Source of the DNA: Chitinophaga pinensis
GTDB lineage: Bacteria; Pseudomonadota; Gammaproteobacteria; Burkholderiales; Burkholderiaceae_C
Direction: 5' to 3'
Length of the DNA stretch: 64,000 bases
Assembly: GCA_943326015.2 (NCBI GenBank)
Contig: CALPRQ020000008.1
Location: 4,369 to 68,368, forward strand
In this document: positions 1,576 through 14,183 of the stretch, piece after piece
Position numbering within the stretch: the first letter of the stretch is position 1
Layout of the letters: every line of letters starts with the position of its first letter
Made by a program: the position numbers and the translations under genes
The notes under the pieces: generated by a model
Databases searched by the model: none
Told to the model about the DNA's origin: nothing
The model's input: only the letters and a program-made list of their open reading frames with translations

Positions 1576-1584
1576 GGCGCTTCC

Positions 1585-1992
1585 TCAGAGGCCCAGAGCT
1601 TCGCGGACGGCTGGTACCAGGCGGGCGCGGATGTCATCGCGCACGGCAACGAAGCTCTCCAGCGGCTCACCGTGCGGGTCATGGAAGCCGACATGGAGTC
1701 GCTGCACCGGCCCCGGGAAGATGGGGCAGCTTTCCTTGGCGTTGTCGCACACGCTGACGACCAGGTCAATCGGTTCGTGCATCACGTCCTCGACGGTCTT
1801 CGGATGCAGGCCGTCGGTAGGCAGATTCAGCAGCTGCAACGCCGCGATGGCGCCATCCGCCACCTTGGGCTGCGGCATTGTGCCGGCCGAAATGGCGCGC
1901 ACCTGACCCGCCAGTTCGTGGTTGAGGATGGCTTCGCCCATTTGCGAACGGCAGGAATTGCCGGTGCAGAGTACGAGTACGGTCTTGGTCAT
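1585..1992 (-). CDS. arsC: Thioredoxin-dependent (LMW-PTP fold) arsenate reductase
   Basis: P-loop CTGNSCRSQM and redox pair C-x6-C (VCDNAKESCP); ATGA overlap with arsR. Confidence 0.93.
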   Translation of the reverse strand: MTKTVLVLCTGNSCRSQMGEAILNHELAGQVRAISAGTMPQPKVADGAIAALQLLNLPTDGLHPKTVEDVMHEPIDLVVSVCDNAKESCPIFPGPVQRLHVGFHDPHGEPLESFVAVRDDIRARLVPAVREALGL

Positions 1993-2363
1993 GAGCAGGT
2001 CTTGCGGGAGGAGGTTTTCTGGAGACTGCCCCGCCGCTGCGTGGCGGTGGCCACGGCTTGCGTCTGCGGCAGGCAGCTGCTGCCCTGACAGCAGTTGTGG
2101 GTGAGAAATGCGATCAGGTCGTCCATCGTGCAGTAGTCGGTGCTGTAGCGGATGAAGCGGCCTTCCTTCTGCCCCCGGATCAAGCCGACTCGGCTCAAGT
2201 GCGCCAGATGAAAGGACAGCGTGGCCGGCACCAGTCCAAGCCGCTCGCCCATCACGCCCGGGAACAAGCCCTCGTCACCGGCTTCGACCAACAGGCGGAA
2301 GATGGACAGACGCGCCTCGTGTCCAAGGGCGGCCAGCAGTTCAGCAGCGTTGAGTGTTTCCAT
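1989..2363 (-). CDS. arsR: ArsR/SmtB-family As(III)-responsive repressor
   Basis: LAALGHEARLSIFRLLV and LSFHLAHL wHTH; C-terminal NCCQGSSC three-Cys site; start set at ATG 2363. Confidence 0.92.
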   Translation of the reverse strand: METLNAAELLAALGHEARLSIFRLLVEAGDEGLFPGVMGERLGLVPATLSFHLAHLSRVGLIRGQKEGRFIRYSTDYCTMDDLIAFLTHNCCQGSSCLPQTQAVATATQRRGSLQKTSSRKTCS

Positions 2364-2364
2364 G

Positions 2365-2382
2365 TTTTGAATAATATCAAAA
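2365..2382. promoter_or_regulatory. Probable ArsR operator overlapping the ars promoter
   Basis: Perfect dyad TTTTGA-ATAATA-TCAAAA in an AT-rich patch abutting the arsR start; its spacer reads TATTAT (-10-like) on the minus strand. Confidence 0.7.
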
Positions 2383-2577
2383 TAATGGGATTGCTTCATG
2401 ACATTGGTGTGGCAGCGGCCCGGGACTTGGTCTGAACCAAGCGCTGGCTACGGCGGCTGACATGGCGTACCGTTAGCCAGTACCGAACCGGCAGCCGGCC
2501 CATCCCCAAGGTGGTTGGACTGGCCTGCCGTGCCATCGACATGGGCGCTCACGCCTGAAGCGTGGCGAGCCAGAAGA

Positions 2578-4008
2578 TCACTGCGCGCGGCAGATCTTGA
2601 GCATGTTGGTGCCGCCCGGCGTGCCCATCGGTTCGCCGCAGGTGATGGCGTAGACGTCGCCGCTCTGCACGATGCCGCGTTCCTTGAGGTGCTGCTCGGC
2701 TTGCTGCAGCGCGGTGTCGCGCTCGGCGCTGGTGTCCATCAGCAGCGGGCGCACATTGCGGTAGAGCGCCATCTTGCGTTGCGCCGCGAGCTTGGAGGTG
2801 ACGGCGTAGATCGGCATCGCGACCTTGTGCCGGCTCATCCAGAGCGCGGTCGAGCCCGAGTCGGTCAGCGCGACGATGGCCTTGGCGCCCAGATGGCTGG
2901 CGGTGAACAGCGCGCCCATCGCGATGGTGTGGTCGATGCGGTCGAAGGTCTTGCCGGTGAAGTCGGATTCGAGCTCGTAGCTGTCGGCCTTTTCCGCTGC
3001 CAGGCAGATCTTGGCCATCTCCTGGATGGTCTGCAGCGGGTACTTGCCGGCGGCGGTCTCGGCGCTCAGCATCACGGCGTCGGTGCCGTCGAGCACCGCG
3101 TTGGCGACGTCGCTGACCTCGGCGCGGGTCGGCACCGGGTGGGTGATCATGCTCTCCATCATCTGGGTCGCGGTGATCACGACCTTGTCGTTGGCCAGCG
3201 CGAGCTTGATCATGCGCTTTTGCAGCGCCGGCACCGCGGCGTTGCCGACCTCGACCGCCAGGTCGCCGCGCGCGACCATGATGCCGTCCGAGACGCGCAG
3301 GATGTTCTCCAGCTCGGGGATGGCTTCGGCGCGCTCGATCTTGGCGATCAGGCCCGGCTTGTGTCCCGGGGGCGCCGCCACCAGGCACAGCTGGCGCGCC
3401 AGCTCCATGTCGGTCGCGGTCTTCGGGAAGCTGACCGCGACATAGTCGGCCTTCAGGCCCATCGCGGTCTTGATGTCGTCCATGTCCTTGCCGGTCAGCG
3501 CCGGCGCGGTCAGGCCGCCGCCCTGCTTGTTGATGCCCTTGTTGTTGGACAGCTCGCCGCCGATCACCACCACGGTGTGCACCGCCTCGCCAGCCACCTG
3601 GCTGACTTCGAGCACGATCAGGCCGTCGTTGAGCAGCAGCCGGTCGCCGGCCTTGACATCGCGCGGCAGGTCCTTGTAGTCCAGGCCCACGCCTTCGATG
3701 TCGCCCGGTTCGGTGCGGGCCGCATCGAGCACGAAGGCCGCGCCGTCCTCCAGCATGACCTTGCCCTCGGCGAACTTGCCGACCCGGATCTTGGGACCCT
3801 GCAGGTCGGCCATGATCGCGACCTCGACGCCGGCGCGGCGTGCCGCCGCCCGCACCATCTCAGCGCGGTCGATATGGTCCTGGGCCTTGCCGTGCGAGAA
3901 GTTCAGCCGCACGACGTTGACGCCGGCGCGGATCATCTGTTCGAGCAGGGCGGGGTCGCTGGAGGCGGGACCCAGGGTGGCGACGATCTTGGTGGCACGC
4001 TGAGGCAT
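2578..4008 (-). CDS. pyk: Pyruvate kinase
   Basis: True start MPQRATKIVATLGPAS; RLNFSHG, DLQGPKIR, MVARGDL and ATQMMESM motifs. The upstream part of the 734-aa track ORF is non-coding extension. Confidence 0.97.
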   Translation of the reverse strand: MPQRATKIVATLGPASSDPALLEQMIRAGVNVVRLNFSHGKAQDHIDRAEMVRAAARRAGVEVAIMADLQGPKIRVGKFAEGKVMLEDGAAFVLDAARTEPGDIEGVGLDYKDLPRDVKAGDRLLLNDGLIVLEVSQVAGEAVHTVVVIGGELSNNKGINKQGGGLTAPALTGKDMDDIKTAMGLKADYVAVSFPKTATDMELARQLCLVAAPPGHKPGLIAKIERAEAIPELENILRVSDGIMVARGDLAVEVGNAAVPALQKRMIKLALANDKVVITATQMMESMITHPVPTRAEVSDVANAVLDGTDAVMLSAETAAGKYPLQTIQEMAKICLAAEKADSYELESDFTGKTFDRIDHTIAMGALFTASHLGAKAIVALTDSGSTALWMSRHKVAMPIYAVTSKLAAQRKMALYRNVRPLLMDTSAERDTALQQAEQHLKERGIVQSGDVYAITCGEPMGTPGGTNMLKICRAQ

Positions 4009-4112
4009 GGGGTGGTTCCGGGAGAAAGGCGTTGGTCGAATGGTGTGCCGTTCCAGCGACGGCACGATGTCATTATCCGGCACGGATGTGACTGGCCGGT
4101 AACAGGCCGGAC

Positions 4113-5120
4113 TCAAGCGCCGTAGTAGCTCCGGTACCAAGCGACGAAGCGCTCGACGCCGTCCTTGAGCGGCGTGGCGGGCTGGAAGCCGACCCAGTCG
4201 CGCAGCGCGGTCGTGTCGGCGTAGGTGGCCTCGACGTCGCCGGGCTGGGCTGGCAGCATGCGCTTGTCGGCCTCGTGGCCCACCGCCTGCTCGATCGTGC
4301 TGACGAAGTCCATCAGTTGCACCGGGTCGGAGTTGCCGATATTGAACACGCGGTAGGGCGCGAAGCTGGTCGAGCAGCGCGGGGCCTGGCGGTCGAAGTC
4401 CGCATCGGCCGTCGCGGGCTTGTCGAGCACCCGCAGCGTCGACTCGACGATGTCGCCAACGTAGGTGAAGTCGCGCATCTGGCGACCGTAGTTGTAGATG
4501 TCGATGCCCTGGCCTTCCGAGATCGCCTTGACGAACTTGAACGGCGCCATGTCGGGCCGGCCCCAGGGGCCATAGACGGTGAAGAAGCGCAGGCCGCTGG
4601 TCGGGATGCCGTACAGGTGGCTGTAGGTGTGCGCCATCAGCTCGTTGGCTTTCTTGGTCGCGGCGTAGAGGCTGACCGGGTGATCGACCGGATGGTCCTC
4701 GCTGAACGGCAGCCTGGCGTTGGCGCCGTAGACGCTGGAGCTGCTGGCGTAGGCCAGATGCTCGACCTGCCAATGCCGGCACAGTTCCAGCACGTTGAGG
4801 AAGGCGACCAGGTTGGCCTGGGCGTAGGTGTGCGGGTGGTCGATCGAGTAGCGCACGCCGGGTTGCGCGGCCAGGTGCAGCACGCGCTGTGGCTGCCAGT
4901 CGCCCAAGGCGGCTTGCACGCCCGCCAGGTCGGCCAGGTCCTGCTCGATGAAGCGGAAGTTGGGGTAGCCGGTCAGCTGCGCGAGCCGGTCGCGCTTGAG
5001 CTGGACGTCGTAGTAGGGCGTCAGATTGTCGATGCCGACCACCTCGTCGCCGCGTTCGAGCAGGCGCAGTGCGGCGTGCATGCCGATGAAACCGGCACAG
5101 CCGGTGAGCAGAATCTTCAC
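4113..5120 (-). CDS. UDP-glucuronate 4-epimerase (extended SDR, CapI/LpsL-like)
   Basis: GTG start KILLTGCAGFIG (GxxGxxG), HLAAQPGVRYS, SLYAATKKANE (YxxxK), FFTVYGPWGRPDMA; AGGA RBS. Confidence 0.88.
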   Translation of the reverse strand: MKILLTGCAGFIGMHAALRLLERGDEVVGIDNLTPYYDVQLKRDRLAQLTGYPNFRFIEQDLADLAGVQAALGDWQPQRVLHLAAQPGVRYSIDHPHTYAQANLVAFLNVLELCRHWQVEHLAYASSSSVYGANARLPFSEDHPVDHPVSLYAATKKANELMAHTYSHLYGIPTSGLRFFTVYGPWGRPDMAPFKFVKAISEGQGIDIYNYGRQMRDFTYVGDIVESTLRVLDKPATADADFDRQAPRCSTSFAPYRVFNIGNSDPVQLMDFVSTIEQAVGHEADKRMLPAQPGDVEATYADTTALRDWVGFQPATPLKDGVERFVAWYRSYYGA

Positions 5121-5207
5121 GTCGAATCCTTTCAGGCGGCGATCCGCCGCAACTTGTGCCAGCGCCACAGGCGCCAGCGGGTCCAGCACGCGTGACGCGC
5201 TAGGCGC

Positions 5208-6758
5208 TCACGGCTGTGTTTCCTGTTTTTCCGCTGCAGGGCTTCCCTGAAGCAACCAGGCCTGCAGCTTGAGTCGGCCTGACTCCGCCTTTGCCAGCAG
5301 ACGAGACTGTGGATAAAGTGCCAGCAGTCCGGCTGGGGGCTCACCCTGGCCGAGGAAGACTGCGCCCTGCGGGGCCTGATCGGGCTGGAAGGGTTGCTTC
5401 CAGTCAAAATGGTGGTGTACCAGGCCATCCTCGCTCCAGGAGCGCAGCGTCGGCTGCAAGGCGCGCAGTTCGTAGCCGGTCTGCACCAGCAGCGTGCGGT
5501 CGTCGAGCACCCAAGGCAGCTCGCGCAGCGGTTGCAGTGCGGGCTGCAACGCGCCCAGCGCCTCGTGCCAGCCGCGCATGCGGCTCCAGATGTCCCAGGC
5601 TGGCTTGCCGGCCACCGCTGGGACGCCCACCCAGCGCTTGAGGTCGCCGCCGAGCGCGATCGCCGCCGACAGCGCCAGGCCGGCCAGCACCCAGGCCGCC
5701 AGCGTCTTGCAGGAAACCCGGCTGCGCACTGTCAGCCAGCCGGCCGCCAGGCAGACACCGAGCAGGGCCGGCAGCGCCCAGTTCACCTGCGCCTTGGCGC
5801 GCAAGGCCTGCAGCAGGCCGAGCGCGAGCAGCGGCCAGGCAAAAGCCCAGGCGTAGCACAGGGCGGACCAGAGGGCAGGCTTGCCGGCAGCCGGGCTTTG
5901 ATCGACCGGCTGCCAGCGGCGCTTCCAGGCCATTGCCAACATGGCCAGTCCGGCCGGGCCGAGCAGCAGCAGCTGTCCGAGGCTGAATTCGAGCGCCGAG
6001 CCCAGCTTGTGTCCCAGACCCGCGGTGCGGTCCGCGGCGCTCGCGGCACCGCCATGCACCGTGATGTCGAGCGTGTGGTGCAGCGTTGGCCAGCCGCTGT
6101 GCATGTTCCAGAACAGGTGCGGCAGCAGCAGCAGCGCCGCGATGCCGGCGGCCAGCGCCAGGCCGGCCAGCAGGCGGCTACGCTGCGTCGGCGGGCAGCG
6201 CCACAGCAGCCAGGGCACCGACAGGCTCAAGGCGCCGGCGGTGTACTTGGACAGCAGGGCCAGGCCGAGCGCGATCCCGGTCAGCGCCCACCAGCGCCAG
6301 GCGCTGGCTCCTTCAGCGTGTGCGGCGCGCCAGGTGCCCAGCATGACGAGCGACCAGAACAGCATCAGCACCGAGTCGGTGGTCACGCTCAAGCCGAGCA
6401 GGCCGGATGCGGTCGAAGCCGCCAGCAGCGCGGCAGCGGCCATGCCGGCGCGTTCGCTGCCCATCGCGGCACCGAGGCGCCAGAGCACCGCCGAGGCCAG
6501 CAGCCAGGCGACCATCGCCAGTGCCTTGACGCCGAGCAGGCTGTCGCCAAACAGTTCGGTCGAGAGCCGGATCAGGCCGACCAGCAGCGGCGGCTTGGAG
6601 AAATAACCCCATTCGAGCGCCTGCGACCAGTACCAGTACTGGGCCTCGTCGACATGCAGGCCGGCGCCGCTGTGCGCGACCTGCCAGAGTCGCCAGGCCA
6701 GCAGCAGCACGAGTGCGATCGGGACTGCCAGCACGGGGCGGAGCTTGAAGTCGTTCAT
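5208..6758 (-). CDS. ArnT/PMT-family (GT-C) polyprenol-phosphate-sugar transferase no. 2
   Basis: LHVDEAQYWYW...GYFSKPP periplasmic-loop motif, LALLSKYT, many TM helices; ATGA-coupled to the upstream ArnT-like gene. Confidence 0.82.
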   Translation of the reverse strand: MNDFKLRPVLAVPIALVLLLAWRLWQVAHSGAGLHVDEAQYWYWSQALEWGYFSKPPLLVGLIRLSTELFGDSLLGVKALAMVAWLLASAVLWRLGAAMGSERAGMAAAALLAASTASGLLGLSVTTDSVLMLFWSLVMLGTWRAAHAEGASAWRWWALTGIALGLALLSKYTAGALSLSVPWLLWRCPPTQRSRLLAGLALAAGIAALLLLPHLFWNMHSGWPTLHHTLDITVHGGAASAADRTAGLGHKLGSALEFSLGQLLLLGPAGLAMLAMAWKRRWQPVDQSPAAGKPALWSALCYAWAFAWPLLALGLLQALRAKAQVNWALPALLGVCLAAGWLTVRSRVSCKTLAAWVLAGLALSAAIALGGDLKRWVGVPAVAGKPAWDIWSRMRGWHEALGALQPALQPLRELPWVLDDRTLLVQTGYELRALQPTLRSWSEDGLVHHHFDWKQPFQPDQAPQGAVFLGQGEPPAGLLALYPQSRLLAKAESGRLKLQAWLLQGSPAAEKQETQP

Positions 6759-8326
6759 CGCTGCGGCTCCGCGAGTCGGCGCACGATCAGCAAACCGCGC
6801 TGCTCGAAAACGACTTCATGCGGATAGGGGAAATCGCCCAGCCGATGCCGCTTGACCAGTGCCAGTTCGCCTGCGGCCGGATCGCGCTGCACGGCCGGGA
6901 TGCCGCGGTAGTAGGCGAAGCTGGGCTGGTGCATCTTCCACTGGACCACGGTTTCGGAGCGACCTTGCGCCCACAGCCCGGCCGCCTTGAACGGCCCCTG
7001 CAGCGTGTCGGACAGCCAGGGGATGACCGCACCGACCCACAGCAGCGCGACCGCCAGCACGGCGGCGCCGAAGCGCTGGCCGAAGTCGAAGCGGCGCAGC
7101 AGCAGCGCGGCCAGGGCCAGCGCGCCGGCCAGTCCGGTCCACAGCGGCAGCAAGCCGGCGCCGGGCGCGGTCTCGAACAGGCCGCGTACCCAGGCATCCT
7201 TGACCTGGGGCGCCAGCGCCGGCAGCAGGATCGGCAGCGCGGCGGCCAGCGCCAGCTGCAAGGCCAGCACGGTCCAGAGCGCGGCGCGGCCGAAGCGGCC
7301 GAGCTCGCCCAACTGGCGCGCCATCAGCAGCGCCAGCGGCGCCACGCCGTACAGCATGTAATGCGGCAGCTTGGTGCCCGAGGCCGAGAACAGCGCGAAC
7401 ACGAAACCGGCCCACAGCAGCAGGAAGCGCGCCAGCGGATCGCGCCACAGCACCCGCGCCCTGGCCAGCACGGCGACCAGCAGCGGCGACCAGGGCAGCA
7501 GCAGCAGTGGCAGCACGACCAGGTAATAGGCGAAGCCGCCGCCATGGCCTTCGAGCGTGCCCGAGAAGCGCTCGACGTTGTGCTTCAGGAAGAAGCCATC
7601 GATGAAAGCCTGGCCGTGGCGCTGCAGCGCATAGAGGTACCAGGGCAGCGCGACGGCCAGCATGATCAGCCAGCCCAGCGGATTCCAGGCGGCGCGCAGC
7701 GCGCTGCGGCCGCGGTCGCTGAACAGCGACCACAGCGCAAAAGCGCCACCCGGCACGATCACCGCCACCGGCCCCTTGGCCAGCAGGCCCAGGCCGCACC
7801 AGAAATAGGCCCAATGCAGCGGCTTGCGCTCGCCGCTTTCGGCGAACAGCCAGAGCGAGAGCGAGATCGCGACCAGCAGCGCATTGAGCAGGCCGTCGGC
7901 GGTCGAGGCGCGCCCGATCGAGAGCAGGCCCAGGCCGCTGCCCAGCACCAGCGCGGCCAGCGCACCATTGGCCTGGCCCCAGCGTCGGGCAGCGAAGCGC
8001 CCCGCCGCCAGCGTGGCGGCCAGCACGCACAGCGCCGATGGCAGCCGCGTCGCCCATTCGTTGATGCCGAAGACCGCCATCGAGGCGGCCTGCAGCCAGT
8101 AGACCAGGATCGGCTTGTCGAAGCGGTCGGTGCCGTTGAGCGTGGTGTGGCCCCAGTCGCCCGAGCTCAGCAGCTCGCGCGTGGCCTCCGAGAAGGCGCC
8201 CTCGTCAACATCGAACAACGGCGCCGCGCCGAGCTGCCACAGGTAAAGCAGGACCAGCGCCAGCGCCACGGTCCAGAACCTGGGGGCGCCTCGCTCAGAC
8301 GGCCGCATCGGTCTTGTCCTGGCCAT
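6755..8326 (-). CDS. ArnT-family (GT83-like) lipid A/LPS glycosyltransferase no. 1
   Basis: LFDVDEGAF...RFDKPILVYW, LAKGPVA, KLPHY motifs of ArnT; alternative start 8308. Confidence 0.87.
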   Translation of the reverse strand: MARTRPMRPSERGAPRFWTVALALVLLYLWQLGAAPLFDVDEGAFSEATRELLSSGDWGHTTLNGTDRFDKPILVYWLQAASMAVFGINEWATRLPSALCVLAATLAAGRFAARRWGQANGALAALVLGSGLGLLSIGRASTADGLLNALLVAISLSLWLFAESGERKPLHWAYFWCGLGLLAKGPVAVIVPGGAFALWSLFSDRGRSALRAAWNPLGWLIMLAVALPWYLYALQRHGQAFIDGFFLKHNVERFSGTLEGHGGGFAYYLVVLPLLLLPWSPLLVAVLARARVLWRDPLARFLLLWAGFVFALFSASGTKLPHYMLYGVAPLALLMARQLGELGRFGRAALWTVLALQLALAAALPILLPALAPQVKDAWVRGLFETAPGAGLLPLWTGLAGALALAALLLRRFDFGQRFGAAVLAVALLWVGAVIPWLSDTLQGPFKAAGLWAQGRSETVVQWKMHQPSFAYYRGIPAVQRDPAAGELALVKRHRLGDFPYPHEVVFEQRGLLIVRRLAEPQR

Positions 8327-9323
8327 GCCAGCCCTCTCGAATAGCGCGCGGGTCGGGCCGCATCACCTGGTAGGAACGCGCGCCGGACTGGTCGAAGTAG
8401 CTGCGCATCAGGATCTCGGCCAGCACGCCGGTGGTCAGCATCTGCACGCCGGCGAGCACCGAGAAGAAGCCCAGCCAGAGCAGCGGCCGGCCGCCGACAT
8501 CCTCGCCGAGCAGCTTGAGCACGGCGAGATAGCCCAGCATCAGGCCACCGAGCGAGGACAGGATCAGCCCGAAGCCGCCGAAGAAATGGCCCGGGCGGGT
8601 GCCGAAGCGCAGGAAGTAATGCATCGCCAGCAGGTCGACGATGACGCGGAAGGTGCGCGAGATGCCGTACTTGGACTCGCCCATGCGGCGCGCGTGATGC
8701 CGCACCGGCTCCTCGGCCATGCGGCCCGGCGAGGTGACCGTGGCGAGCCAGGCCGGGATGAAGCGGTGCATCTCGCCGTACAGGCGGACCTGGCGCAGCA
8801 CGTCGCCGCGGAAGGCCTTCAGGCTGCAGCCCAGGTCCTTGAATTCCAGCCCCGAGACCTTGCGGATCAGCCGGTTGGCGATCATCGAGGGCAGCTTGCG
8901 CAGCAGGAAGCCGTCCTGGCGCTTCTGGCGCCAGCCCGCGACCATGTCGAGGTCCTCGGTCAGCAGGCGCGACACCAGCTTGGGGATGTCGCGCGGGTCG
9001 TTCTGCAGGTCGCCGTCCATGGTCACGATCACGTCGCCGCGTGCCGTGTCGATGCCGGCCTGCATCGCGGCGGTCTGGCGGAAGTTGCGGCGCAGCTCGA
9101 CGATGTGGACATGAGGCCCGAGCTCGGCGGCGCGCTGGCGCAGCTCGCGTGGCGTGCCGTCGGTGCTGCCGTCGTCGACCACGATCAGTTCCCAGGGTTG
9201 CGGGTAGTCCTGCAGCGCCTCCTGCACCGCATCGATCTGCAGCCGGGCGTTGTCTTTTTCGTTGTACATCGGCACCACCACCGACAGGCGGTGCGGCGGC
9301 AGGGGAAAGGTCAGCTCGGACAT
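8295..9323 (-). CDS. GT2 polyprenol-phosphate glycosyltransferase (ArnC/GtrB/RgtE-like)
   Basis: VVVPMYNE, VVDDGSTDGT, TMDGDLQNDP (DXD), GEMHRFIP; two C-terminal TM helices. Confidence 0.9.
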   Translation of the reverse strand: MSELTFPLPPHRLSVVVPMYNEKDNARLQIDAVQEALQDYPQPWELIVVDDGSTDGTPRELRQRAAELGPHVHIVELRRNFRQTAAMQAGIDTARGDVIVTMDGDLQNDPRDIPKLVSRLLTEDLDMVAGWRQKRQDGFLLRKLPSMIANRLIRKVSGLEFKDLGCSLKAFRGDVLRQVRLYGEMHRFIPAWLATVTSPGRMAEEPVRHHARRMGESKYGISRTFRVIVDLLAMHYFLRFGTRPGHFFGGFGLILSSLGGLMLGYLAVLKLLGEDVGGRPLLWLGFFSVLAGVQMLTTGVLAEILMRSYFDQSGARSYQVMRPDPRAIREGWHGQDKTDAAV

Positions 9324-9344
9324 GTGGTGATCTTGTTGCAGGTT

Positions 9345-10280
9345 TCAGGCCGGATCTTGTCCGGACGGGTGGCGGCGCAGGTCGCGGTGGCTCCAGCCCA
9401 GCAGGCGGGCAACGATGGAGGAGCCGACCGTGACGGCCAGCGCCAGCAGGTGCACGACCAGCGCGGCCAGCGCGATCTCGCTCCAGGGCGCATCGGCCGC
9501 GCTGCGAACTGCCGCGATGACGCCAGCCTCGTAGGGGCCGAAGCCGGCCGGCGGCTGCACCGGCAGCGCGGCAGCCAGTTCGCCGCCGGCCGCGCCCTTG
9601 AGCGCGGCGTCGAAGTCGATCGGCAGCAGGCTCAGCAAGGGCCAGGCGATGGCCGCGAGTTTAACGATCCAGTTCGAGACCGCATAGGCCCAGCTGGCCC
9701 AGGCCGGCGCTGGCAGCTGGCGGCCGCTCTCGCCGCTGCGGCGTGCGGCACGCTCCTGCACGATGAACCAGACCGCGGGCAGCAGCCAGATCGCCGCCAC
9801 CAGCATGGCCAGCAGCAGCAGCAGGCGCCAGGGCCAGCTGAAGGGTGCAAAGAGCGCGAGCGCCAGCACCGCGAGCACCGCCATGTCCTGCAGCCGCAGC
9901 CGCAGCAGGCTCAAGCCCGCCTGGCGCAACGGCACGCCGCCCTGGCGGTGCAGCGCCCAGACGTAGATCGCCTCGCCGCCGCGCATGGGAACGAGCACCA
10001 CCCAGGCGCTGTGGCGCACCATCAGGCCCCAGGCCTCGCGCCACCCCATGCGCAGCTGGCCGCGCCATTCGGCGCGCACCCGGCCGGCGCGCAGCCCATG
10101 GCTGGCAGCCAGTCCCAAGCCCGACAGCAGCCAGACCCAAGGCGGCACCTTGCCCCAGGTGATGGCAGCCTGTTGCCAGTCCACCTGACGCAGCATCCAA
10201 CCCAGCGCGACGACGGTCGCCAGCGTAACGAGGATGGTGATCCAGAATTTCTTGCCTGCTGGCTTGTGTTTGTTGCTCAT
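9345..10280 (-). CDS. LPG-synthase-TM/flippase-like membrane protein
   Basis: Start moved to MSNKHKPAGKK; LRAGRVR, VPMRGGEAIY and PPAGFGPYEAG resemble the YbhN/MprF-N/AglD2 flippase-like family. Confidence 0.7.
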   Translation of the reverse strand: MSNKHKPAGKKFWITILVTLATVVALGWMLRQVDWQQAAITWGKVPPWVWLLSGLGLAASHGLRAGRVRAEWRGQLRMGWREAWGLMVRHSAWVVLVPMRGGEAIYVWALHRQGGVPLRQAGLSLLRLRLQDMAVLAVLALALFAPFSWPWRLLLLLAMLVAAIWLLPAVWFIVQERAARRSGESGRQLPAPAWASWAYAVSNWIVKLAAIAWPLLSLLPIDFDAALKGAAGGELAAALPVQPPAGFGPYEAGVIAAVRSAADAPWSEIALAALVVHLLALAVTVGSSIVARLLGWSHRDLRRHPSGQDPA

Positions 10281-10318
10281 CGCTGCCTTGTGTCGCTCTC
10301 GGCCGCTGTCAGTCGCCA

Positions 10319-11143
10319 TCAGCCGCGGATGCGGCGTTGACCCAGACAGGTCGCCAGCCGCCAGCCGGCACTGGCCAGCGCGGCCAGGCCGAGCGCCCAT
10401 TGCAGGGCTTCTACCTCGGGGTAACCTTCGCGCGCCGTGAAGGTGGCCAGCGCGCCGAGCAACTCGACGATCAGCGGAACCCGGACCGACATCCAGCCGC
10501 CCTGGCGCAGCCAGCGGGCCTGCAGCTGCCAGCACAGCGCGGCGACCGCGAGCCCCAGGCCGGCACCCACCAGGATGTCAGCCGGCCAGTGCGCGCCGAC
10601 CGCGACGCGCGAGCAGGCCATCGCGGCCCCCAGCGCCCAGGCCAGCGCCTGCAGCCAGAGCGGCCTGCCGTCACGGCGCAGCAGGCAGGCCCAGAGCGTC
10701 GCGATGCTGAACGCGGCCAGCGCGTGGCCCGAAGGCATCGCGGGGCTGTTGAGCACCGGGCTGCCGATGAAATGCAATGCGCCCTCGGGCAGCACCAGCC
10801 CCGGCCTGGGCTGCGCGAACCAGAGCTTGAGCAGCTGCGCCAGTCCGCCACCGAGCAGGAAGGCCAGCAGCACGGCACGGCTGCCTTCGGCTCCGCGGTC
10901 GGCCGCGCTGACCAGGATCAGGGCCGACCAGCCGAAGGCCAGCAGCGTCAGCCCGGCCCAGACCGCATCGGGCAACAGTCCCAGGCCGTTGCCCCACAGC
11001 ATGGCGGCCTGGTTCCAGCGCGAGCCGTGCAGCAGCGCGCCGGCCACGACCAGTATCAGCGCCACCAGCCACCAGCTGCGGGGAATGGCCTGCGGCGCCT
11101 GGCCAGGGCAAGCGCTGGGCGCCGGTTTGGAGGGAGCGGGCAT
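10319..11143 (-). CDS. PAP2-family membrane phosphatase (LpxE/LpxF/UppP-like)
   Basis: All three PAP2 motifs present: K-x6-RP (KLWFAQPRP), PSGH, SR-x5-H-x3-D (SRVAVGAHWPAD); start uncertain (11143 or 11200). Confidence 0.88.
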   Translation of the reverse strand: MPAPSKPAPSACPGQAPQAIPRSWWLVALILVVAGALLHGSRWNQAAMLWGNGLGLLPDAVWAGLTLLAFGWSALILVSAADRGAEGSRAVLLAFLLGGGLAQLLKLWFAQPRPGLVLPEGALHFIGSPVLNSPAMPSGHALAAFSIATLWACLLRRDGRPLWLQALAWALGAAMACSRVAVGAHWPADILVGAGLGLAVAALCWQLQARWLRQGGWMSVRVPLIVELLGALATFTAREGYPEVEALQWALGLAALASAGWRLATCLGQRRIRG

Positions 11144-11216
11144 GGCAAGGCTGGCCAGAAAACGAGGGGAACTGATTTTATCCCTTGCCAGCTGTATCAT
11201 TTTTCAGCGGATCGCC

Positions 11217-12383
11217 TCAGTCGCTGCCGAACAGGTCGCGCGTGTAGACCTTGTCGCTCACATCGTCGAGATCGGCGGTCTGGCGGTTAGCGACGATCAC
11301 GTCGCATTCCTGCTTGAAGCCAGCCAGGTCGCGCACCACCTCGGAACCGAAGAAGTCGTCAGCTTCCAGCACCGGCTCGTACACCACCACCTTGACGCCC
11401 TTGGCTTTCAGCCGCTTCATCACGCCCTGCACGCTGCTGGCGCGGAAGTTGTCGCTGCCGGCCTTCATGACCAGGCGGTAGACGCCCACCACCTTCGGGC
11501 GGCGGCGCAGGATGTCGTCGGCGATGAAGTCCTTGCGCGTGCTGTTGGCGCTCACGATCGCGCTGATCAGCGTCTGCGGCACGTTCTGGTAGTTGGCCAG
11601 CAGCTGCTTGGTGTCCTTGGGCAGGCAGTAGCCGCCGTAGCCGAAGCTCGGGTTGTTGTAATGCGCGCCGATGCGCGGGTCCAGGCAGACGCCGTCGATG
11701 ATCTGGCGCGTGTCCAGGCCGTGGCTGGCGGCGTAGCTGTCGAGCTCGTTGAAATAGGCCACGCGCAGCGCGAGGTAGGTGTTGGCGAACAGCTTGATCG
11801 CCTCGGCCTCGGTGCTGCCGGTGAACAGCAGCGGGATGTCGGTCTTGATGGCGGCGGCCTGCAGCAGGCTGGCGAAGACGCGCGCGCGCTCGGAGTCTTC
11901 GCCCACCACGATGCGGCTCGGATACAGGTTGTCGTGCAGCGCCTTGCCCTCGCGCAGGAACTCGGGGCTGAAGATCAGCTGGTCCGTGCCGTACTGGGCG
12001 CGCGCCTTCTCGGTGAAGCCGACCGGCACCGTCGACTTGATCACCATCACCGCGTCCGGGTTGATCGCGAGCACGTCGCGGATCACGGCCTCGACCGATC
12101 CGGTATTGAAGTAGTTGGTCGCCGGGTCGTAGTCGGTCGGCGTCGCGATGATGACGTAGTCGGCGCCCTGGTAGGCCTCGCGCTTGTCGAGCGTGGCGCG
12201 CAGATTCAGCGGCCTGGTCGCGAGGTAATGCTCGATGTCCGCATCCTCGATCGGCGACTGGCGCGCATTGAGCTGCTCGACCTTGGCCGGGACGATGTCG
12301 AGCGCGACGACTTCGTGCTGCTGCGCGAGCAGCACGGCATTGGAGAGACCGACGTAACCGGTGCCGGCGATGGCGATTTTCAT
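11217..12383 (-). CDS. ugd: UDP-glucose 6-dehydrogenase
   Basis: [31 protein letters not shown] (catalytic Cys); 388 aa. Confidence 0.96.
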
Positions 12384-12484
12384 GCGGATCTGGGCTGGAT
12401 TGGCCCCCTAGTCTGGATGCGTCGATGTTAGCGCCGACCGGCGTCCTTGCTCACCTGATCGTCGTGCCCATGCGCCGCCGGCGC

Positions 12485-13132
12485 TCACATCAGGCCACCG
12501 ACCAGCCAGGCGGCGGTGCCCCACATCATGAGCGCGACCAGGCCGTCGATGGCACGCCAGAGCGCGGCTGATCCGAGCCGGCGACCGAGCCAGAAGGTCG
12601 CCGCGCCCAGCAGCGTGAACCAGAGCAGCGATCCGGTCAGCGCGCCGGCACCGAACAGCTGGTTGCCAGGCCGGCCCCAGGCCAGCGAGGCGGTGCCGAT
12701 CAGCACCGCGGTGTCGAGCCAGGCGTGCGGGTTGAGCCAGGAGAAGGCCAGCGCCGTGAGCACGGCCTGACGCCGCGTCATCGGCTGATTGGCGTTCGCT
12801 TCTGTACCCAGCGGCTGGTCCACGGCCGGCTGCCAGCAGCGCTGCCCTGCCTGCCAGCCATAGACCAGCAGGAACAGCGCACCGGCACCGACCAGCGCGC
12901 CCTGCAGCTTGTCGCTCAGGCCGCCGAGCTCGGCCAGCCCCAGCACGCCAAGCGCGATCAGCACGAAGTCGGCCAGCATGCTGATCGCGACGGTCAGCCA
13001 GAGATGCTGGCGCCGCAGGCCCATGCGCATGACATGCGCGTTCTGCGGACCAATGGCCATGATCAGCGACAGGCTCAGCGCCAGGCCGGCGCTGAAGGCT
13101 GGGGAAAGGATGGAGGGCAGGGCGATCGACAT
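12485..13132 (-). CDS. LysE/ArgO-family amino acid exporter
   Basis: IMAIGPQNAHV, WLNPHAWLDT; divergent from an ArgP-type LysR. Confidence 0.9.
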   Translation of the reverse strand: MSIALPSILSPAFSAGLALSLSLIMAIGPQNAHVMRMGLRRQHLWLTVAISMLADFVLIALGVLGLAELGGLSDKLQGALVGAGALFLLVYGWQAGQRCWQPAVDQPLGTEANANQPMTRRQAVLTALAFSWLNPHAWLDTAVLIGTASLAWGRPGNQLFGAGALTGSLLWFTLLGAATFWLGRRLGSAALWRAIDGLVALMMWGTAAWLVGGLM

Positions 13133-13204
13133 GACAGGGACTCCGGTTGCGCCGCCATCGACGCAGCGCCATCAGGAGTGTGCCGGCTGGCCGCATCAAT
13201 TAAA

Positions 13205-13249
13205 ATGATTCAAATAAAACTAGATTCACTCAAGAAAAACTTGAATCAT
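13205..13249. promoter_or_regulatory. AT-rich divergent argP/lysE control region with a 9-bp inverted repeat
   Basis: ATGATTCAA (13205-13213) and TTGAATCAT (13241-13249), 27 nt apart; the right arm overlaps the argP start. Confidence 0.5.
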
Positions 13250-14183
13250 GCTCGATGCCCGTCAGCTTGAGGCGCTCGTCGCCGTGCTCGAACAGGGCAG
13301 TTTCGGTGCCGCTGCCGAACAGCTGCACCTCACGCTGGCGGCGGTTTCGCTGCGCGTCAAGGCGCTCGAGGAGTCACTGGGGCAGCGCCTGCTGGTACGC
13401 GGCAAGCGCCTGCGCGCGACCGCCGCCGGTCAGGCCCTGCTCGCACATGCACGCCAGCTGCAGCTGATGGAGGCGGACTTGCTCGCGAGTCTGCCCGGTC
13501 ATGCGCCAGCCGCCGGCCGCGACTGGCAGCGGCTGAGCGTGGCGGTCAACGCCGATTCGGTCGCCGCCTGGTTCCTGCCGGGTGTCGCGCCGCTGCTGCG
13601 GCAACAGCGCTTGCTGCTCGACATCGTGATCGACGACCAGGATCACACCCACGACGCGCTCAAGAATGGCGAGGTCAGCGGCTGTGTCACGACGCTGGCA
13701 CAGCCGATGCGCGGCTGCGTTGCCGAGCCGCTGGGCGTGATGCGCTACCGCTGTGTCGCCTTGCCGGCGCTGGTGCAGCAATGCCGGACGGTGCGCGGCG
13801 CGGTCTCGCCGCACCGGCTGATCGCACTGCCGGCGGTGATCTTCAACCGCAAGGACGCGCTGCAGGATGCCTTCCTTGAGCGCCATTTCGGTCTGCGCCA
13901 GGCCGGCTACCCGCGCCACTTCTTGCCGGCAACCGACGCCTTCATGGCGGCGCTCGAGCTTGGCCTGGGCTGGGGCATGGTGCCCGAGCAGGAGCTCGCG
14001 CAGCGTGCCGGCCGCCCCGAGCTGGTCGAACTGCTGCCGGGTGCGACGGTCGACGTGACGCTCTACTGGCAGCATTGGCTGCGCGAACCGCCATCAGCGC
14101 AACGCCTGACGCAGGCGGTCAAGCAAGCCGCCAGCGAACAGCTCGTGCCCATGCCAGCTTCCGCGGGCCAGCGGGATGAATAA
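13248..14183 (+). CDS. argP: LysR-family regulator ArgP/LysG
   Basis: N-terminal LysR HTH, AVNADS motif, VTLYWQHW; divergent from lysE/argO. Confidence 0.9.

What the first reader, a model, noticed from the sequence alone, without database searches (positions are those of the whole stretch)
4113..12383. Candidate galacturonic-acid-for-phosphate lipid A/LPS modification system (Rgt/LpxE-like) in a betaproteobacterium
Seen: seven co-oriented, mostly overlapping genes: ugd, PAP2 phosphatase with all three catalytic motifs, flippase-like membrane protein, ArnC-type GT2, two different ArnT-like GT-C transferases, and UDP-glucuronate 4-epimerase. Known: Ugd plus this epimerase make UDP-GalA. In rhizobia RgtE (GT2) makes polyprenyl-P-GalA, the ArnT-like RgtA-D/RgtF transfer GalA to core or lipid A, and LpxE/LpxF (PAP2) remove lipid A phosphates. 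Amino-sugar systems (Arn, Bordetella Lgm, Francisella Flm/NaxD) need a deformylase or deacetylase, and Arn also needs ArnA/ArnB; none is in this cluster. Inference: a self-contained pathway that dephosphorylates lipid A and adds GalA at one or two sites, which I do not know from Burkholderiales. It could spare phosphate or alter peptide and phage susceptibility. The PAP2 could instead recycle undecaprenyl-PP.
Basis: partly seen in the sequence, partly recalled or inferred. Interest (0 to 1): 0.72.

Follow-up and report, generated by a model that had tools for sequence, protein, structure and literature searches.

The report
Predicted lipid A phosphate-to-galacturonate operon
A seven-gene operon in a Malikia-type freshwater betaproteobacterium most likely makes a lipid-linked galacturonic acid, flips it outward, removes a phosphate from the lipid A anchor of the outer membrane and adds the acidic sugar in its place; this chemistry is known from rhizobia and Aquifex but has not been described in this clade.

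Summary
Window 4113-12383 (minus strand) carries seven co-oriented, tightly packed genes: ugd, a PAP2 phosphatase with all three motifs, a UPF0104/MprF-flippase-like membrane protein, an ArnC-like GT2, two unrelated ArnT-fold GT-C transferases, and a UDP-glucuronate 4-epimerase-family enzyme.

The genome has no ArnA, ArnD, ArnE/F or EptA. It has no other GT-C of this type, no other ArnC-like GT2 and no other true Ugd.

I compared 80 related Burkholderiales loci:
- The GT2/GT-C1 core is almost always linked to PAP2 phosphatases.
- It is linked to the epimerase in at least four independent arrangements.
- PAP2 is fused to GT-C1 in at least three protein lineages.

Relatives carry an eighth gene, an LpxF-like PAP2, after GT-C2. 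In this genome it has been deleted, leaving a scar of about 70 nt at 5121-5207.

Aquabacterium splits the system into PAP2a-GT-C1 at one locus and flippase-GT2-GT-C2-PAP2b at another. This shows two phosphatase/transferase modules sharing one donor module.

Best reading (about 0.6): an Rgt/LpxE/LpxF-type replacement of lipid A phosphate by GalA, reduced here to one complete module.

Nothing chemical is shown. Orthology to the Rgt proteins could not be tested. No Pho box was found here. I class it as a new member of a known kind, of moderate interest.

The parts
11217..12383 (-). ugd, UDP-glucose 6-dehydrogenase (388 aa). It is the only true Ugd in the genome.
   Evidence: Pfam UDPG_MGDP_dh N, central and C domains; NCBIfam PRK15057 696 bits. 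The other dehydrogenases in the genome are only 22-25% identical.
10319..11200 (-). PAP2a, a polytopic PAP2 phosphatase (293 aa). Proposed lipid A phosphatase, probably acting at position 1, that prepares the acceptor for GT-C1.
   Evidence: Pfam PAP2 8e-24, with all three catalytic motifs. The only PDB hit is Aquifex LpxE 6EBU at 1e-8. The best NCBIfam hits are generic (SepP, PgpB, YbjG type), all far below cut-off. It lies next to GT-C1 in 35 of 44 complete loci. PAP2-GT-C1 fusions: P0052, P0241, P0309.
9345..10319 (-). UPF0104 / LPG_synthase_TM (PplT) membrane protein. Proposed flippase for polyprenyl-P-GalA. The start is ATG 10319 or ATG 10280.
   Evidence: Pfam PF03706 49.5 bits. AlphaFold model pLDDT 87.6; its six best PDB fold matches are all MprF, TM 0.50-0.55. 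Linked to the GT2 in 32 of 44 complete loci.
8295..9323 (-). ArnC/RgtE-like GT2 (342 aa). Proposed polyprenyl-phosphate galacturonosyl synthase.
   Evidence: Pfam Glycos_transf_2 2.6e-33. ArnC structures 2e-44 over residues 9-320. Two C-terminal TM helices. NCBIfam ArnC 163 bits against a cut-off of 529, so not an ArnC ortholog. It is the only such GT2 in the genome. It is 61-96% identical across the 80 loci.
6755..8326 (-). GT-C1, an ArnT-fold glycosyltransferase (523 aa). Proposed GalA transferase to the position freed by PAP2a.
   Evidence: PMT_2 5.6e-19. ArnT 5EZM 4.8e-22, with the ArnT D55, K85, D158 and K203 equivalents kept (D41, K71, D144, K184) and R58 replaced by an invariant Ala. 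NCBIfam ArnT 157 bits against a cut-off of 567. Forms a clade apart from E. coli ArnT.
5208..6758 (-). GT-C2, a second and unrelated ArnT-fold glycosyltransferase (516 aa). In relatives it is paired with the LpxF-like PAP2b. Its acceptor in this strain is uncertain.
   Evidence: PMT_2 1.9e-21. No PDB sequence hit. AlphaFold model pLDDT 87.9; best fold match is ArnT 5F15/5EZM, TM 0.60. dN/dS 0.27-0.29 against relatives, so still constrained. GT-C2 is followed by PAP2b in 10 of 14 complete loci and in the split Aquabacterium loci.
5121..5207 (-). Deletion scar of the LpxF-like PAP2b gene. The last ~70 nt of its coding sequence survive between GT-C2 and the epimerase.
   Evidence: Alignment with Malikia L004/L005: about 640 bp are missing and the 3' end is retained. 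No PAP2b anywhere in the genome. PAP2b of relatives matches NCBIfam LpxF at 1e-30.
4113..5120 (-). UDP-glucuronate 4-epimerase-family SDR (335 aa, GTG start). Proposed to make UDP-GalA.
   Evidence: Pfam Epimerase 9e-52. PDB: 5U4Q 2.5e-139, then B. cereus UDP-GlcA 4-epimerase 6ZLA 3e-45 and MoeE5; these rank above GalE, WbpP and UXS. Linked to the GT2 cluster in 20 of 35 complete GT2-containing loci, in at least four arrangements.
12425..12430 (-). Possible -10 hexamer (TAACAT) of the operon promoter, 42 nt upstream of the ugd ATG. Weak evidence.
   Evidence: A similar hexamer (TAATAT / TAGAAT) sits at the same place upstream of ugd in L005 and in the Limnohabitans loci. The consensus scan found no promoter here.

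Best explanation
The operon is an Rgt/LpxE/LpxF-type system that replaces lipid A phosphate with galacturonic acid.

Proposed steps:
1. Ugd oxidises UDP-glucose to UDP-GlcA, and the epimerase converts that to UDP-GalA. The family assignments are shown; the substrates are inferred.
2. The ArnC-like GT2 transfers GalA to undecaprenyl phosphate on the cytoplasmic face (inferred).
3. The MprF-flippase-like UPF0104 protein moves Und-P-GalA to the periplasmic face (inferred).
4. PAP2a removes a lipid A phosphate, probably the 1-phosphate, and GT-C1 puts GalA on the freed hydroxyl. This is inferred from linkage and fusion.
5. In relatives, a second module acts at the other position, probably 4'. It consists of GT-C2 and an LpxF-like PAP2b.

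In this genome PAP2b has been deleted. Only one complete phosphatase/transferase module remains. GT-C2 is still under purifying selection, so it either works without a dedicated phosphatase or has another acceptor.
For: Parts list.

Whole-genome context:
- Only two PMT_2 GT-Cs, both in this cluster.
- One ArnC-like GT2 and one true Ugd.
- No ArnA, ArnD or ArnE/F and no EptA.
- BacA/UppP is present, so Und-PP recycling is already covered.

Synteny across 80 loci. In the 44 loci with full flanks: PAP2a in 35, any PAP2 in 36, GT2 in 35, UPF0104 in 32, epimerase in 20, PAP2b in 21, GT-C2 in 14. The epimerase or ugd is attached in at least four different arrangements.

Coupling of phosphatase and transferase:
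- PAP2-GT-C1 fusions occur in three lineages.
- PAP2b is LpxF-like in 12 of 12 members, best E 1.6e-35.
- One genome has the order GT2-GTC1-PAP2a-GTC2-PAP2b.
- Aquabacterium splits the system into PAP2a-GT-C1 and UPF0104-GT2-GT-C2-PAP2b.

Folds: GT-C2 is ArnT-like and the UPF0104 protein is MprF-like.

Precedent: an rgtE-lpxE-rgtF cluster in Oligotropha and other alphaproteobacteria (PMC7663294).
Against: - There is no chemical or expression evidence.
- PAP2a's best family hits are generic Und-PP/PGP phosphatases; only 7 of 24 family members touch the LpxE model.
- All curated equivalog scores (ArnC, ArnT, LpxF) are far below cut-off, so specificities are not established.
- Orthology to RgtD/E/F and LpxE/F could not be tested.
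- The epimerase is absent from 15 of the 35 complete GT2-containing loci, although it may lie elsewhere in those genomes.
- GT-C2 occurs without PAP2b in 4 of 14 complete loci, so its acceptor may not need dephosphorylation.
- The genome has three PF01522 deacetylases elsewhere, so an amino-sugar route cannot be formally excluded.
Confidence: 0.62

Rival explanations
1. The pathway makes Und-P-GalA, but the GT-Cs decorate the LPS core (Kdo or another inner-core sugar, as RgtA-C do in Rhizobium) or another periplasmic glycan. PAP2a is then a general lipid phosphatase (Und-PP or PGP type), or it removes a core phosphate.
For: PAP2a's best NCBIfam hits are SepP, PgpB and YbjG-type phosphatases in 20-24 of 24 family members. 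GT-C2 occurs without PAP2b in 4 of 14 complete loci and stays constrained here after PAP2b was lost. RgtA-C set a precedent for ArnT-like GalA transfer to the core (own knowledge; Brown et al. 2012).
Against: ArnT-type GT-Cs release Und-P, not Und-PP, so a recycling phosphatase has no job in this pathway, and BacA is present anyway. PAP2-GT-C1 fusions and stand-alone PAP2a-GT-C1 pairs point to an acceptor-side role. The second phosphatase of the system is LpxF-like in all 12 members.
Confidence: 0.17
2. The lipid-linked sugar is not GalA. It could be GlcA, or an amino sugar made with a deacetylase encoded elsewhere, as in Bordetella Lgm or Francisella Flm/NaxD. On this reading ugd and the epimerase serve another polysaccharide and are only co-transcribed.
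For: GT2 specificity cannot be read from sequence; the ArnC model scores 163 bits against a cut-off of 529. Three PF01522 deacetylases and three DegT aminotransferases exist elsewhere in the genome. Fifteen of the 35 complete GT2-containing loci lack a nearby epimerase.
Against: The epimerase or ugd is joined to the GT2/GT-C core in at least four independent arrangements across lineages. ugd here is the only true Ugd, and there is no ArnA or UXS-type consumer of UDP-GlcA. No deacetylase lies in any of the 80 loci near the core, and no arnD-like hit was found there.
Confidence: 0.1
3. The cluster does not act on LPS. It glycosylates a membrane phospholipid, a protein or another envelope polymer, with the UPF0104 protein flipping a glycolipid as proposed for GpgF and HexF.
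For: UPF0104 proteins sit in glycolipid operons such as gpgSDF and hexSDF (PMC12713373). The PMT_2 family also contains protein mannosyltransferases.
Against: Both GT-Cs are closest to ArnT (sequence for GT-C1, fold TM 0.60 for GT-C2) rather than to Pmt (TM 0.3-0.43). The GT2 has ArnC/GtrB architecture, not the GT4 of GpgS. PAP2b is LpxF-like.
Confidence: 0.07

Closest known systems
Rhizobium leguminosarum / Mesorhizobium loti / Oligotropha carboxidovorans lipid A GalA pathway (LpxE, LpxF, RgtE, RgtD, RgtF; rgtE-lpxE-rgtF cluster in Oligotropha, PMC7663294)
   Same: It has the same parts: PAP2 lipid A phosphatases, a GT2 that makes polyprenyl-P-GalA, ArnT-like GT-C transferases, and a UDP-GalA supply from Ugd plus a 4-epimerase. 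GT2, PAP2 and GT-C are also clustered.
   Different: This is a different clade (Burkholderiales). Everything, including the sugar-nucleotide genes, sits in one operon. There is an added UPF0104 flippase-like gene. PAP2-GT-C fusions exist. Orthology to the Rgt proteins is untested. This strain has lost the LpxF-like gene.
Arn (Ara4N) pathway of E. coli, Salmonella and Burkholderia (ArnBCADTEF plus Ugd)
   Same: Ugd feeds the pathway. An ArnC-type GT2 loads undecaprenyl phosphate, the product is flipped, and an ArnT-fold GT-C transfers it to lipid A.
   Different: ArnA, ArnB, ArnD and ArnE/F are missing. GT2 and GT-C1 score far below the ArnC and ArnT equivalog cut-offs. ArnT adds to the phosphate, whereas here phosphatases are part of the system. 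The lipid A-phosphate-orienting R58 of ArnT is Ala in GT-C1 and Gln in GT-C2.
Francisella Flm/LpxE/LpxF/NaxD and Bordetella LgmABCD amino-sugar systems
   Same: A GT2 and an ArnT-like GT-C modify lipid A. Francisella also uses LpxE and LpxF phosphatases.
   Different: Those systems need a deacetylase and add cationic GalN or GlcN to phosphate. This cluster has no deacetylase and instead carries ugd and a uronate epimerase, which predicts an anionic sugar.
Helicobacter pylori LpxE-EptA operon
   Same: A PAP2 lipid A 1-phosphatase and the transferase that then modifies the same position are genetically coupled.
   Different: In H. pylori the transferase is a phosphoethanolamine transferase, not a GT-C glycosyltransferase.
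MprF flippase domain and stand-alone UPF0104/PplT proteins (GpgF of P. aeruginosa, HexF of C. difficile)
   Same: Same Pfam family, and the fold matches MprF. These proteins are encoded next to the enzyme that makes a modified lipid in the cytoplasmic leaflet.
   Different: The proposed cargo here is a polyprenyl-phosphate sugar rather than a modified phospholipid or glycolipid. None of the stand-alone members has a demonstrated flippase activity.

Membership tests
Rgt/LpxE/LpxF lipid A galacturonylation system | UDP-GalA supply: UDP-glucose 6-dehydrogenase plus UDP-glucuronate 4-epimerase | tested here: met
   ugd scores 696 bits on the NCBIfam Ugd model. The epimerase's best characterised PDB relatives are the UDP-GlcA 4-epimerases 6ZLA and MoeE5, which rank above GalE and UXS. 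The assignment is at family level; the activity was not assayed.
Rgt/LpxE/LpxF lipid A galacturonylation system | RgtE-type GT2 that makes polyprenyl-P-GalA | tested here: inconclusive
   The GT2 has ArnC/GtrB architecture and two C-terminal TM helices. Donor specificity and orthology to RgtE (RL1470) could not be tested because no reference sequence was reachable.
Rgt/LpxE/LpxF lipid A galacturonylation system | ArnT-like GT-C transferases orthologous to RgtD (4') or RgtF (1) | not testable with these tools
   Both GT-Cs are ArnT-like. GT-C1 is sister to GT-C+GT2 pairs of another class rather than to E. coli ArnT. No RgtD or RgtF sequences were available, and a plasmid tblastn gave no rhizobial hit.
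Rgt/LpxE/LpxF lipid A galacturonylation system | LpxE-type lipid A 1-phosphatase | tested here: inconclusive
   PAP2a has all three motifs, and its only PDB hit is Aquifex LpxE at 1e-8. NCBIfam, however, ranks SepP, PgpB and YbjG-type models first, and only 7 of 24 family members hit the LpxE model. Fusion and linkage to GT-C1 support an acceptor-side role.
Rgt/LpxE/LpxF lipid A galacturonylation system | LpxF-type lipid A 4'-phosphatase | tested here: not met
   It is absent from the window and from the whole genome, leaving a deletion scar at 5121-5207. It is present in 6 of 9 genomes of the genus and in 21 of 44 complete loci, with LpxF as best hit in 12 of 12 members though below the equivalog cut-off.
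Rgt/LpxE/LpxF lipid A galacturonylation system | Product: GalA glycosidically linked to dephosphorylated lipid A | not testable with these tools
   This needs mass spectrometry or NMR of lipid A.
Arn (Ara4N) pathway | ArnA, ArnB, ArnD and ArnE/F present, with ArnC and ArnT at equivalog level | tested here: not met
   A tblastn of the E. coli Arn proteins against the whole genome found no ArnA, ArnD or ArnE/F. The ArnB-like hits lie in O-antigen-type clusters. ArnC scores 163 against a cut-off of 529 and ArnT 157 against 567. No Arn genes lie next to the core in any of the 80 loci.
Amino-sugar lipid A systems (Lgm, Flm/NaxD) | A deacetylase that acts on the polyprenyl-P-N-acetylhexosamine and is linked to the GT2 and GT-C | tested here: not met
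   No deacetylase is in the cluster. The three PF01522 proteins of the genome are on other contigs.
Undecaprenyl-diphosphate phosphatases (BcrC, PgpB, YbjG, SepP) | Equivalog-level match, and a pathway that releases Und-PP | tested here: not met
   Scores are 42 against a cut-off of 250, 26 against 261 and 24 against 229. BacA/UppP is present elsewhere. ArnT-type transfer releases Und-P (established knowledge).
Protein O-mannosyltransferases (PMT) | Closest relatives are Pmt-type enzymes | tested here: not met
   GT-C1's only PDB sequence hit is ArnT. The GT-C2 model matches ArnT at TM 0.60 and Pmt1/2/4 at 0.31-0.43.
MprF-type flippase domain (PF03706 / UPF0104 / PplT) | Pfam match above the gathering score, and an MprF-like fold | tested here: met
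   PF03706 scores 49.5 bits against a gathering score of 33.4. The six best PDB fold matches are all MprF, TM 0.50-0.55. Flippase activity and cargo were not tested.

The most novel reading that the evidence does not exclude
The system is modular. A shared donor unit (GT2 plus a UPF0104 protein that is the missing flippase for polyprenyl-P-GalA) serves two independent phosphatase/GT-C modules, one for each end of lipid A. Freshwater Burkholderiales (Malikia, Limnohabitans, Aquabacterium, Polaromonas, Ideonella, Zoogloea) gain, lose, split and fuse these modules. Closely related strains would then differ in lipid A charge and phosphate content, for example as a response to phosphate scarcity, phages or grazers. 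GT-C2 in this strain would have a second acceptor that needs no dephosphorylation.
Probability: 0.28. Interest if true: 0.65.

Novelty: new member of a known kind. Interest (0 to 1): 0.5.

Why it matters
If the prediction holds, a sizeable share of Burkholderiales (about 11% of sampled genomes in 23 of 168 genera) build lipid A with galacturonate in place of phosphate. That share includes abundant freshwater bacterioplankton such as Limnohabitans. This would change what we expect of their outer-membrane charge, cation binding, susceptibility to peptides and phages, endotoxic activity and phosphorus budget.

The operon also offers a compact, testable candidate for two open points in the Rgt-type pathway. 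One is which protein flips polyprenyl-P-GalA (the UPF0104 protein). The other is which phosphatase serves which transferase (PAP2a with GT-C1, LpxF-like PAP2b with GT-C2).

Natural variants make ready-made genetic controls: this strain lacks PAP2b, a related MAG lacks GT-C2 and PAP2b, and cultured Malikia granosa and M. spinosa carry all eight genes.

Tried and rejected
- Phylogeny against RgtA-F, LpxE and LpxF was not possible. No reference sequences were reachable. A tblastn of GT-C1 against PLSDB plasmids returned only Cupriavidus, Pantoea and similar ArnT-type hits, and no rhizobial ones.
- Arn hypothesis rejected. E. coli ArnA, ArnD, ArnE and ArnF have no homolog in the genome, and none lies near the core in the 80 loci.
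- Phosphate control was tested because of an earlier scan note on a similar operon. The best Pho-box match upstream of ugd or lysE in the window has 5-6 mismatches out of 14, which is background level. Matches with 3 or fewer mismatches occur in 6 of 58 relatives' upstream regions against 1.5% background, mostly in one clade (L049, L052, L054, L066).
- A 759-aa open frame around the LpxF-like gene in a congener (G403) looked like a GT-C2-PAP2b fusion. It is only a GC-rich frame extension; the two genes are in different frames.
- The GT-C2 homolog search gave 174 relatives, all unnamed or generically named, with no fusions.
- The C3 contig region holding DegT, a deacetylase and an SDR was checked as a possible hidden arn cluster. 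It is an LPS core/O-antigen region with hldD and msbA.
The PAP2b deletion could therefore not be checked against reads, and transcription could not be examined.
- Literature searches for GalA-lipid A in Comamonadaceae, Burkholderiales or Betaproteobacteria found nothing relevant in the open library.

Full report
**1. What is there**

Window 4113-12383 carries seven genes on the minus strand, all with clear family assignments:
- ugd, 11217-12383: all three UDPG_MGDP_dh domains; NCBIfam Ugd 696 bits.
- A PAP2 phosphatase, 10319-11200, here called PAP2a: Pfam 8e-24. The motifs K-x6-RP, PSGH and SR-x5-H-x3-D are readable in the translation.
- An LPG_synthase_TM/UPF0104 membrane protein, 9345-10319.
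- An ArnC-like GT2, 8295-9323.
- Two PMT_2-type GT-C transferases: GT-C1 at 6755-8326 and GT-C2 at 5208-6758.
- An extended SDR epimerase, 4113-5120.

Two starts need correction. The UPF0104 gene begins at ATG 10319 (one-base overlap with the PAP2a stop) or at ATG 10280, not at the long GTG ORF. The epimerase begins at GTG 5120, as in relatives.

Gene junctions are small gaps or overlaps: 16-nt gap, 1-nt overlap, 21-nt gap, 32/14-nt overlap, 4-nt overlap, 87-nt gap. The scan found no convincing internal terminator: the minus-strand terminator-like hits are weak 5-7-pair stems inside the GT2 and PAP2a coding sequences, and their number is what shuffled sequence gives (5 found, 3.3 expected). 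The arrangement is consistent with one operon.

The cluster lies between pyruvate kinase (2578-4020) and a lysE/argP pair (12485-14183). Its nearest named relatives are Malikia granosa P1 and M. spinosa 83, with GT-C1 92% identical.

**2. Identity of the parts**

- **Epimerase.** Its best solved relatives are 5U4Q from Klebsiella (2.5e-139, deposited under a generic name), then the biochemically characterised UDP-glucuronate 4-epimerases of Bacillus cereus (6ZLA family, 3e-45) and MoeE5. These rank ahead of UDP-GlcNAc/UDP-Glc 4-epimerases and UDP-GlcA decarboxylases.
- **GT2.** It aligns over residues 9-320 with ArnC structures (2e-44) and has the two C-terminal TM helices of polyprenyl-phosphate glycosyltransferases. 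It scores far below the ArnC equivalog cut-off (163 against 529).
- **GT-C1.** It matches Cupriavidus ArnT (5e-22) and keeps the ArnT D55, K85, D158 and K203 equivalents. R58, which helps orient the lipid A phosphate in ArnT (as summarised in PMC8306577), is an invariant Ala in the GT-C1 family and Gln in GT-C2. This fits a hydroxyl acceptor rather than a phosphate acceptor, but I treat it only as a hint.
- **GT-C2.** It has no significant similarity to GT-C1 and no PDB sequence hit. Its AlphaFold model (pLDDT 87.9) matches ArnT best (TM 0.60), ahead of AglB, Pmt4 and AftA.
- **UPF0104 protein.** Its model (pLDDT 87.6) has MprF as its six best fold matches (TM 0.50-0.55). Stand-alone UPF0104/PplT proteins are predicted but unproven lipid flippases in glycolipid operons such as gpgSDF and hexSDF (PMC12713373; bioRxiv 10.1101/2022.03.11.483950).

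**3. Whole-genome context**

The assembly is 3.26 Mb and 98.9% complete.
- Its only two PMT_2 GT-Cs are the ones in this cluster.
- It has one ArnC-like GT2 and one true Ugd.
- E. coli ArnA, ArnD, ArnE and ArnF have no homolog. The ArnB-like aminotransferases sit in O-antigen/core-type regions.
- There is no EptA.
- BacA/UppP is present, so undecaprenyl-PP recycling does not need PAP2a.
- The only other PAP2 is a small secreted-type protein on contig C1, with a weak hit to an LpxE model.

This operon is therefore the only recognisable system for modifying the lipid A head group, and UDP-GlcA has no other evident consumer.

**4. Comparative genomics**

A profile of GT-C1 retrieved 80 loci from named Burkholderiales genomes: Malikia, Limnohabitans, Rhodoferax, Polaromonas, Ramlibacter, Ideonella, Aquabacterium, Sphaerotilus, Zoogloea, Azoarcus and others. 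I built HMMs from the clustered neighbours and rescanned all loci.

Counts in the 44 loci with complete flanks:

| Gene near GT-C1 | Loci (of 44) |
|---|---|
| PAP2a | 35 |
| Any PAP2 | 36 |
| GT2 | 35 |
| UPF0104 | 32 |
| Epimerase | 20 (20 of the 35 loci with GT2) |
| Second PAP2 (PAP2b) | 21 |
| GT-C2 | 14 |
| ugd | 6 |

The epimerase or ugd is attached in at least four different ways: flanking the operon, divergently upstream, as an upstream epimerase-ugd pair, or downstream. The more divergent epimerases (37-48% identity) still have UDP-GlcA 4-epimerases as best solved relatives. No Arn gene lies near the core in any locus. GT-C1 orthologs (E below 1e-60) occur in 46 of 401 evenly sampled genomes of the order, in 23 of 168 genera.

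**5. Coupling of phosphatases and transferases**

- PAP2a and GT-C1 form stand-alone adjacent pairs in Aquabacterium, Polaromonas and others.
- They are fused into one protein in at least three lineages: P0052 (757 aa, a genuine single ORF), P0241 (796 aa) and P0309 (708 aa). All three carry PAP2 plus PMT_2.
- PAP2b is a different PAP2; only the third motif aligns with PAP2a. Its best NCBIfam hit is the lipid A 4'-phosphatase LpxF in 12 of 12 members (best 1.6e-35), followed by the 'PAP2 family lipid A phosphatase' model. All these scores are below the equivalog cut-offs.
- PAP2b follows GT-C2 in 10 of 14 complete loci.
- One genome has the order GT2-GTC1-PAP2a-GTC2-PAP2b.
- Three Aquabacterium genomes with a stand-alone PAP2a-GT-C1 pair carry UPF0104-GT2-GT-C2-PAP2b at a second locus.

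This gives a consistent picture: one donor module (GT2 plus UPF0104) and two acceptor modules (PAP2a/GT-C1 and PAP2b/GT-C2).

ArnT-type GT-Cs release undecaprenyl monophosphate, so a phosphatase fused to one has no recycling role. The simplest job for it is to prepare the acceptor. With an LpxF-like partner in the same system, that acceptor is most likely lipid A.

**6. What is special in this window**

Malikia granosa, M. spinosa, a related MAG and Limnohabitans have PAP2b between GT-C2 and the epimerase. This genome does not. About 640 bp are missing, and the last ~70 nt of the PAP2b reading frame remain at 5121-5207.
- The LpxF model finds the gene in 6 of 9 species genomes of the genus. 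It does not find it here or in two incomplete assemblies.
- A related MAG (L001) has an independent, cleaner deletion. Another (L002) lacks both GT-C2 and PAP2b.
- GT-C2 in this genome is intact, with dN/dS 0.27-0.29 against relatives (baseline 0.23). This is similar to PAP2a and the UPF0104 gene, so it is still constrained.

The strain therefore has one complete module. The role of GT-C2 without its usual phosphatase is open.

**7. Weak points**

- PAP2a's sequence affinities are generic. SepP, PgpB and YbjG-type models come first, and only 7 of 24 family members touch the LpxE model. Its only PDB hit is Aquifex LpxE.
- Assigning PAP2a/GT-C1 to position 1 and PAP2b/GT-C2 to position 4' is inference.
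- GT2 donor specificity is inferred from linkage only.
- I could not place the GT-Cs, GT2 or PAP2s in trees with Rgt, LpxE or LpxF references, because none were reachable. A limited tree shows GT-C1 as sister (97/88) to GT-C+GT2 pairs from another class, with E. coli ArnT outside and GT-C2 far apart.
- No Pho box precedes the operon, so the phosphate-sparing idea has no support here. Pho-box-like repeats do occur upstream in some relatives.

**8. Comparison and novelty**

The closest known system is the alphaproteobacterial and Aquifex GalA-lipid A pathway: LpxE/LpxF, RgtE, RgtD/RgtF. It includes an rgtE-lpxE-rgtF cluster in Oligotropha (PMC7663294).

This cluster works like that system. It differs in four ways:
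- It occurs in a different clade.
- It is consolidated into one operon together with the sugar-nucleotide genes.
- It has a dedicated UPF0104 flippase candidate.
- Some lineages carry phosphatase-transferase fusions.

The open literature searched contains no report of GalA-lipid A in Comamonadaceae or Burkholderiales.

I rate it a new member of a known kind. It is a coherent, testable prediction with useful natural variants, but it is not mechanistically surprising.

Noticed in passing
window 499-2399 (minus strand): An arsenic-resistance trio lies just beyond pyruvate kinase: an ArsR-type regulator (1989-2399), a thioredoxin-type arsenate reductase (1585-1992) and an ACR3 arsenite efflux transporter (499-1575; NCBIfam acr3 389 bits, above cut-off).
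   Followed up: partly
window 12485-14183: A LysE-family exporter (12485-13132, minus) and an ArgP/LysG-type LysR regulator (13248-14183, plus) form a divergent pair directly upstream of ugd. lysE is co-oriented with the operon and ends 101 nt before the ugd ATG, so read-through transcription is possible.
   Followed up: no
own genome, contig C1:132330-132554 (outside the window): This is the only other PAP2 protein of the genome. It is a 176-aa protein with a signal-peptide-like N-terminus, and its sole NCBIfam hit is a weak match to lipid A 1-phosphatase LpxE (PRK09597, 1.6e-7, 31 bits against a cut-off of 177). It lies about 8 kb from an O-antigen-type cluster. It might substitute for a lost lipid A phosphatase.
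   Followed up: partly
L049, L052, L054, L066 (intergenic region between the divergent epimerase and PAP2a); L008, L009 (upstream of ugd): Pho-box-like direct repeats occur upstream of the cluster in some relatives, for example TATTCATGACACTGTCAT and CTGTCGTGCCTTTGTCATCAAACTGCC. Six of 58 upstream regions have 3 or fewer mismatches, against 1.5% of random windows. The window itself has none.
   Followed up: partly
L114-L116 and L024, L036, L038 (Aquabacterium genomes G794, G795, G797): The system is split into two distant loci: PAP2a-GT-C1 alone, and UPF0104-GT2-GT-C2-PAP2b. This natural separation of the two acceptor modules would be useful for genetics.
   Followed up: yes
L088-L106 (genomes of another class, family code f94, 1.5-3 Mb): A large group of small genomes carries a GT-C that scores 200-264 bits on the GT-C1 profile, above ArnT-type hits. 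It is always adjacent to a GT2 (about 370 bits on the GT2 profile). No PAP2, epimerase or UPF0104 gene was detected within about 9 kb in the three loci examined. The identity of these genomes is unknown.
   Followed up: partly
window 2515-4125(+), 8325-10340(+), 10437-12431(+), 6818-8344(+): Long ORFs (508-671 aa) run antisense to the real genes. The one tested (2515-4125) has no Pfam or NCBIfam match. They look like shadow frames typical of 68-72% G+C DNA, not genes.
   Followed up: partly
L082 6350-8455 (G403, same genus): A 701-759-aa open frame surrounds the LpxF-like gene and mimics a GT-C2-PAP2b fusion. The two genes are in fact in different frames. Open-frame lengths in GC-rich genomes should be read with care.
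   Followed up: yes
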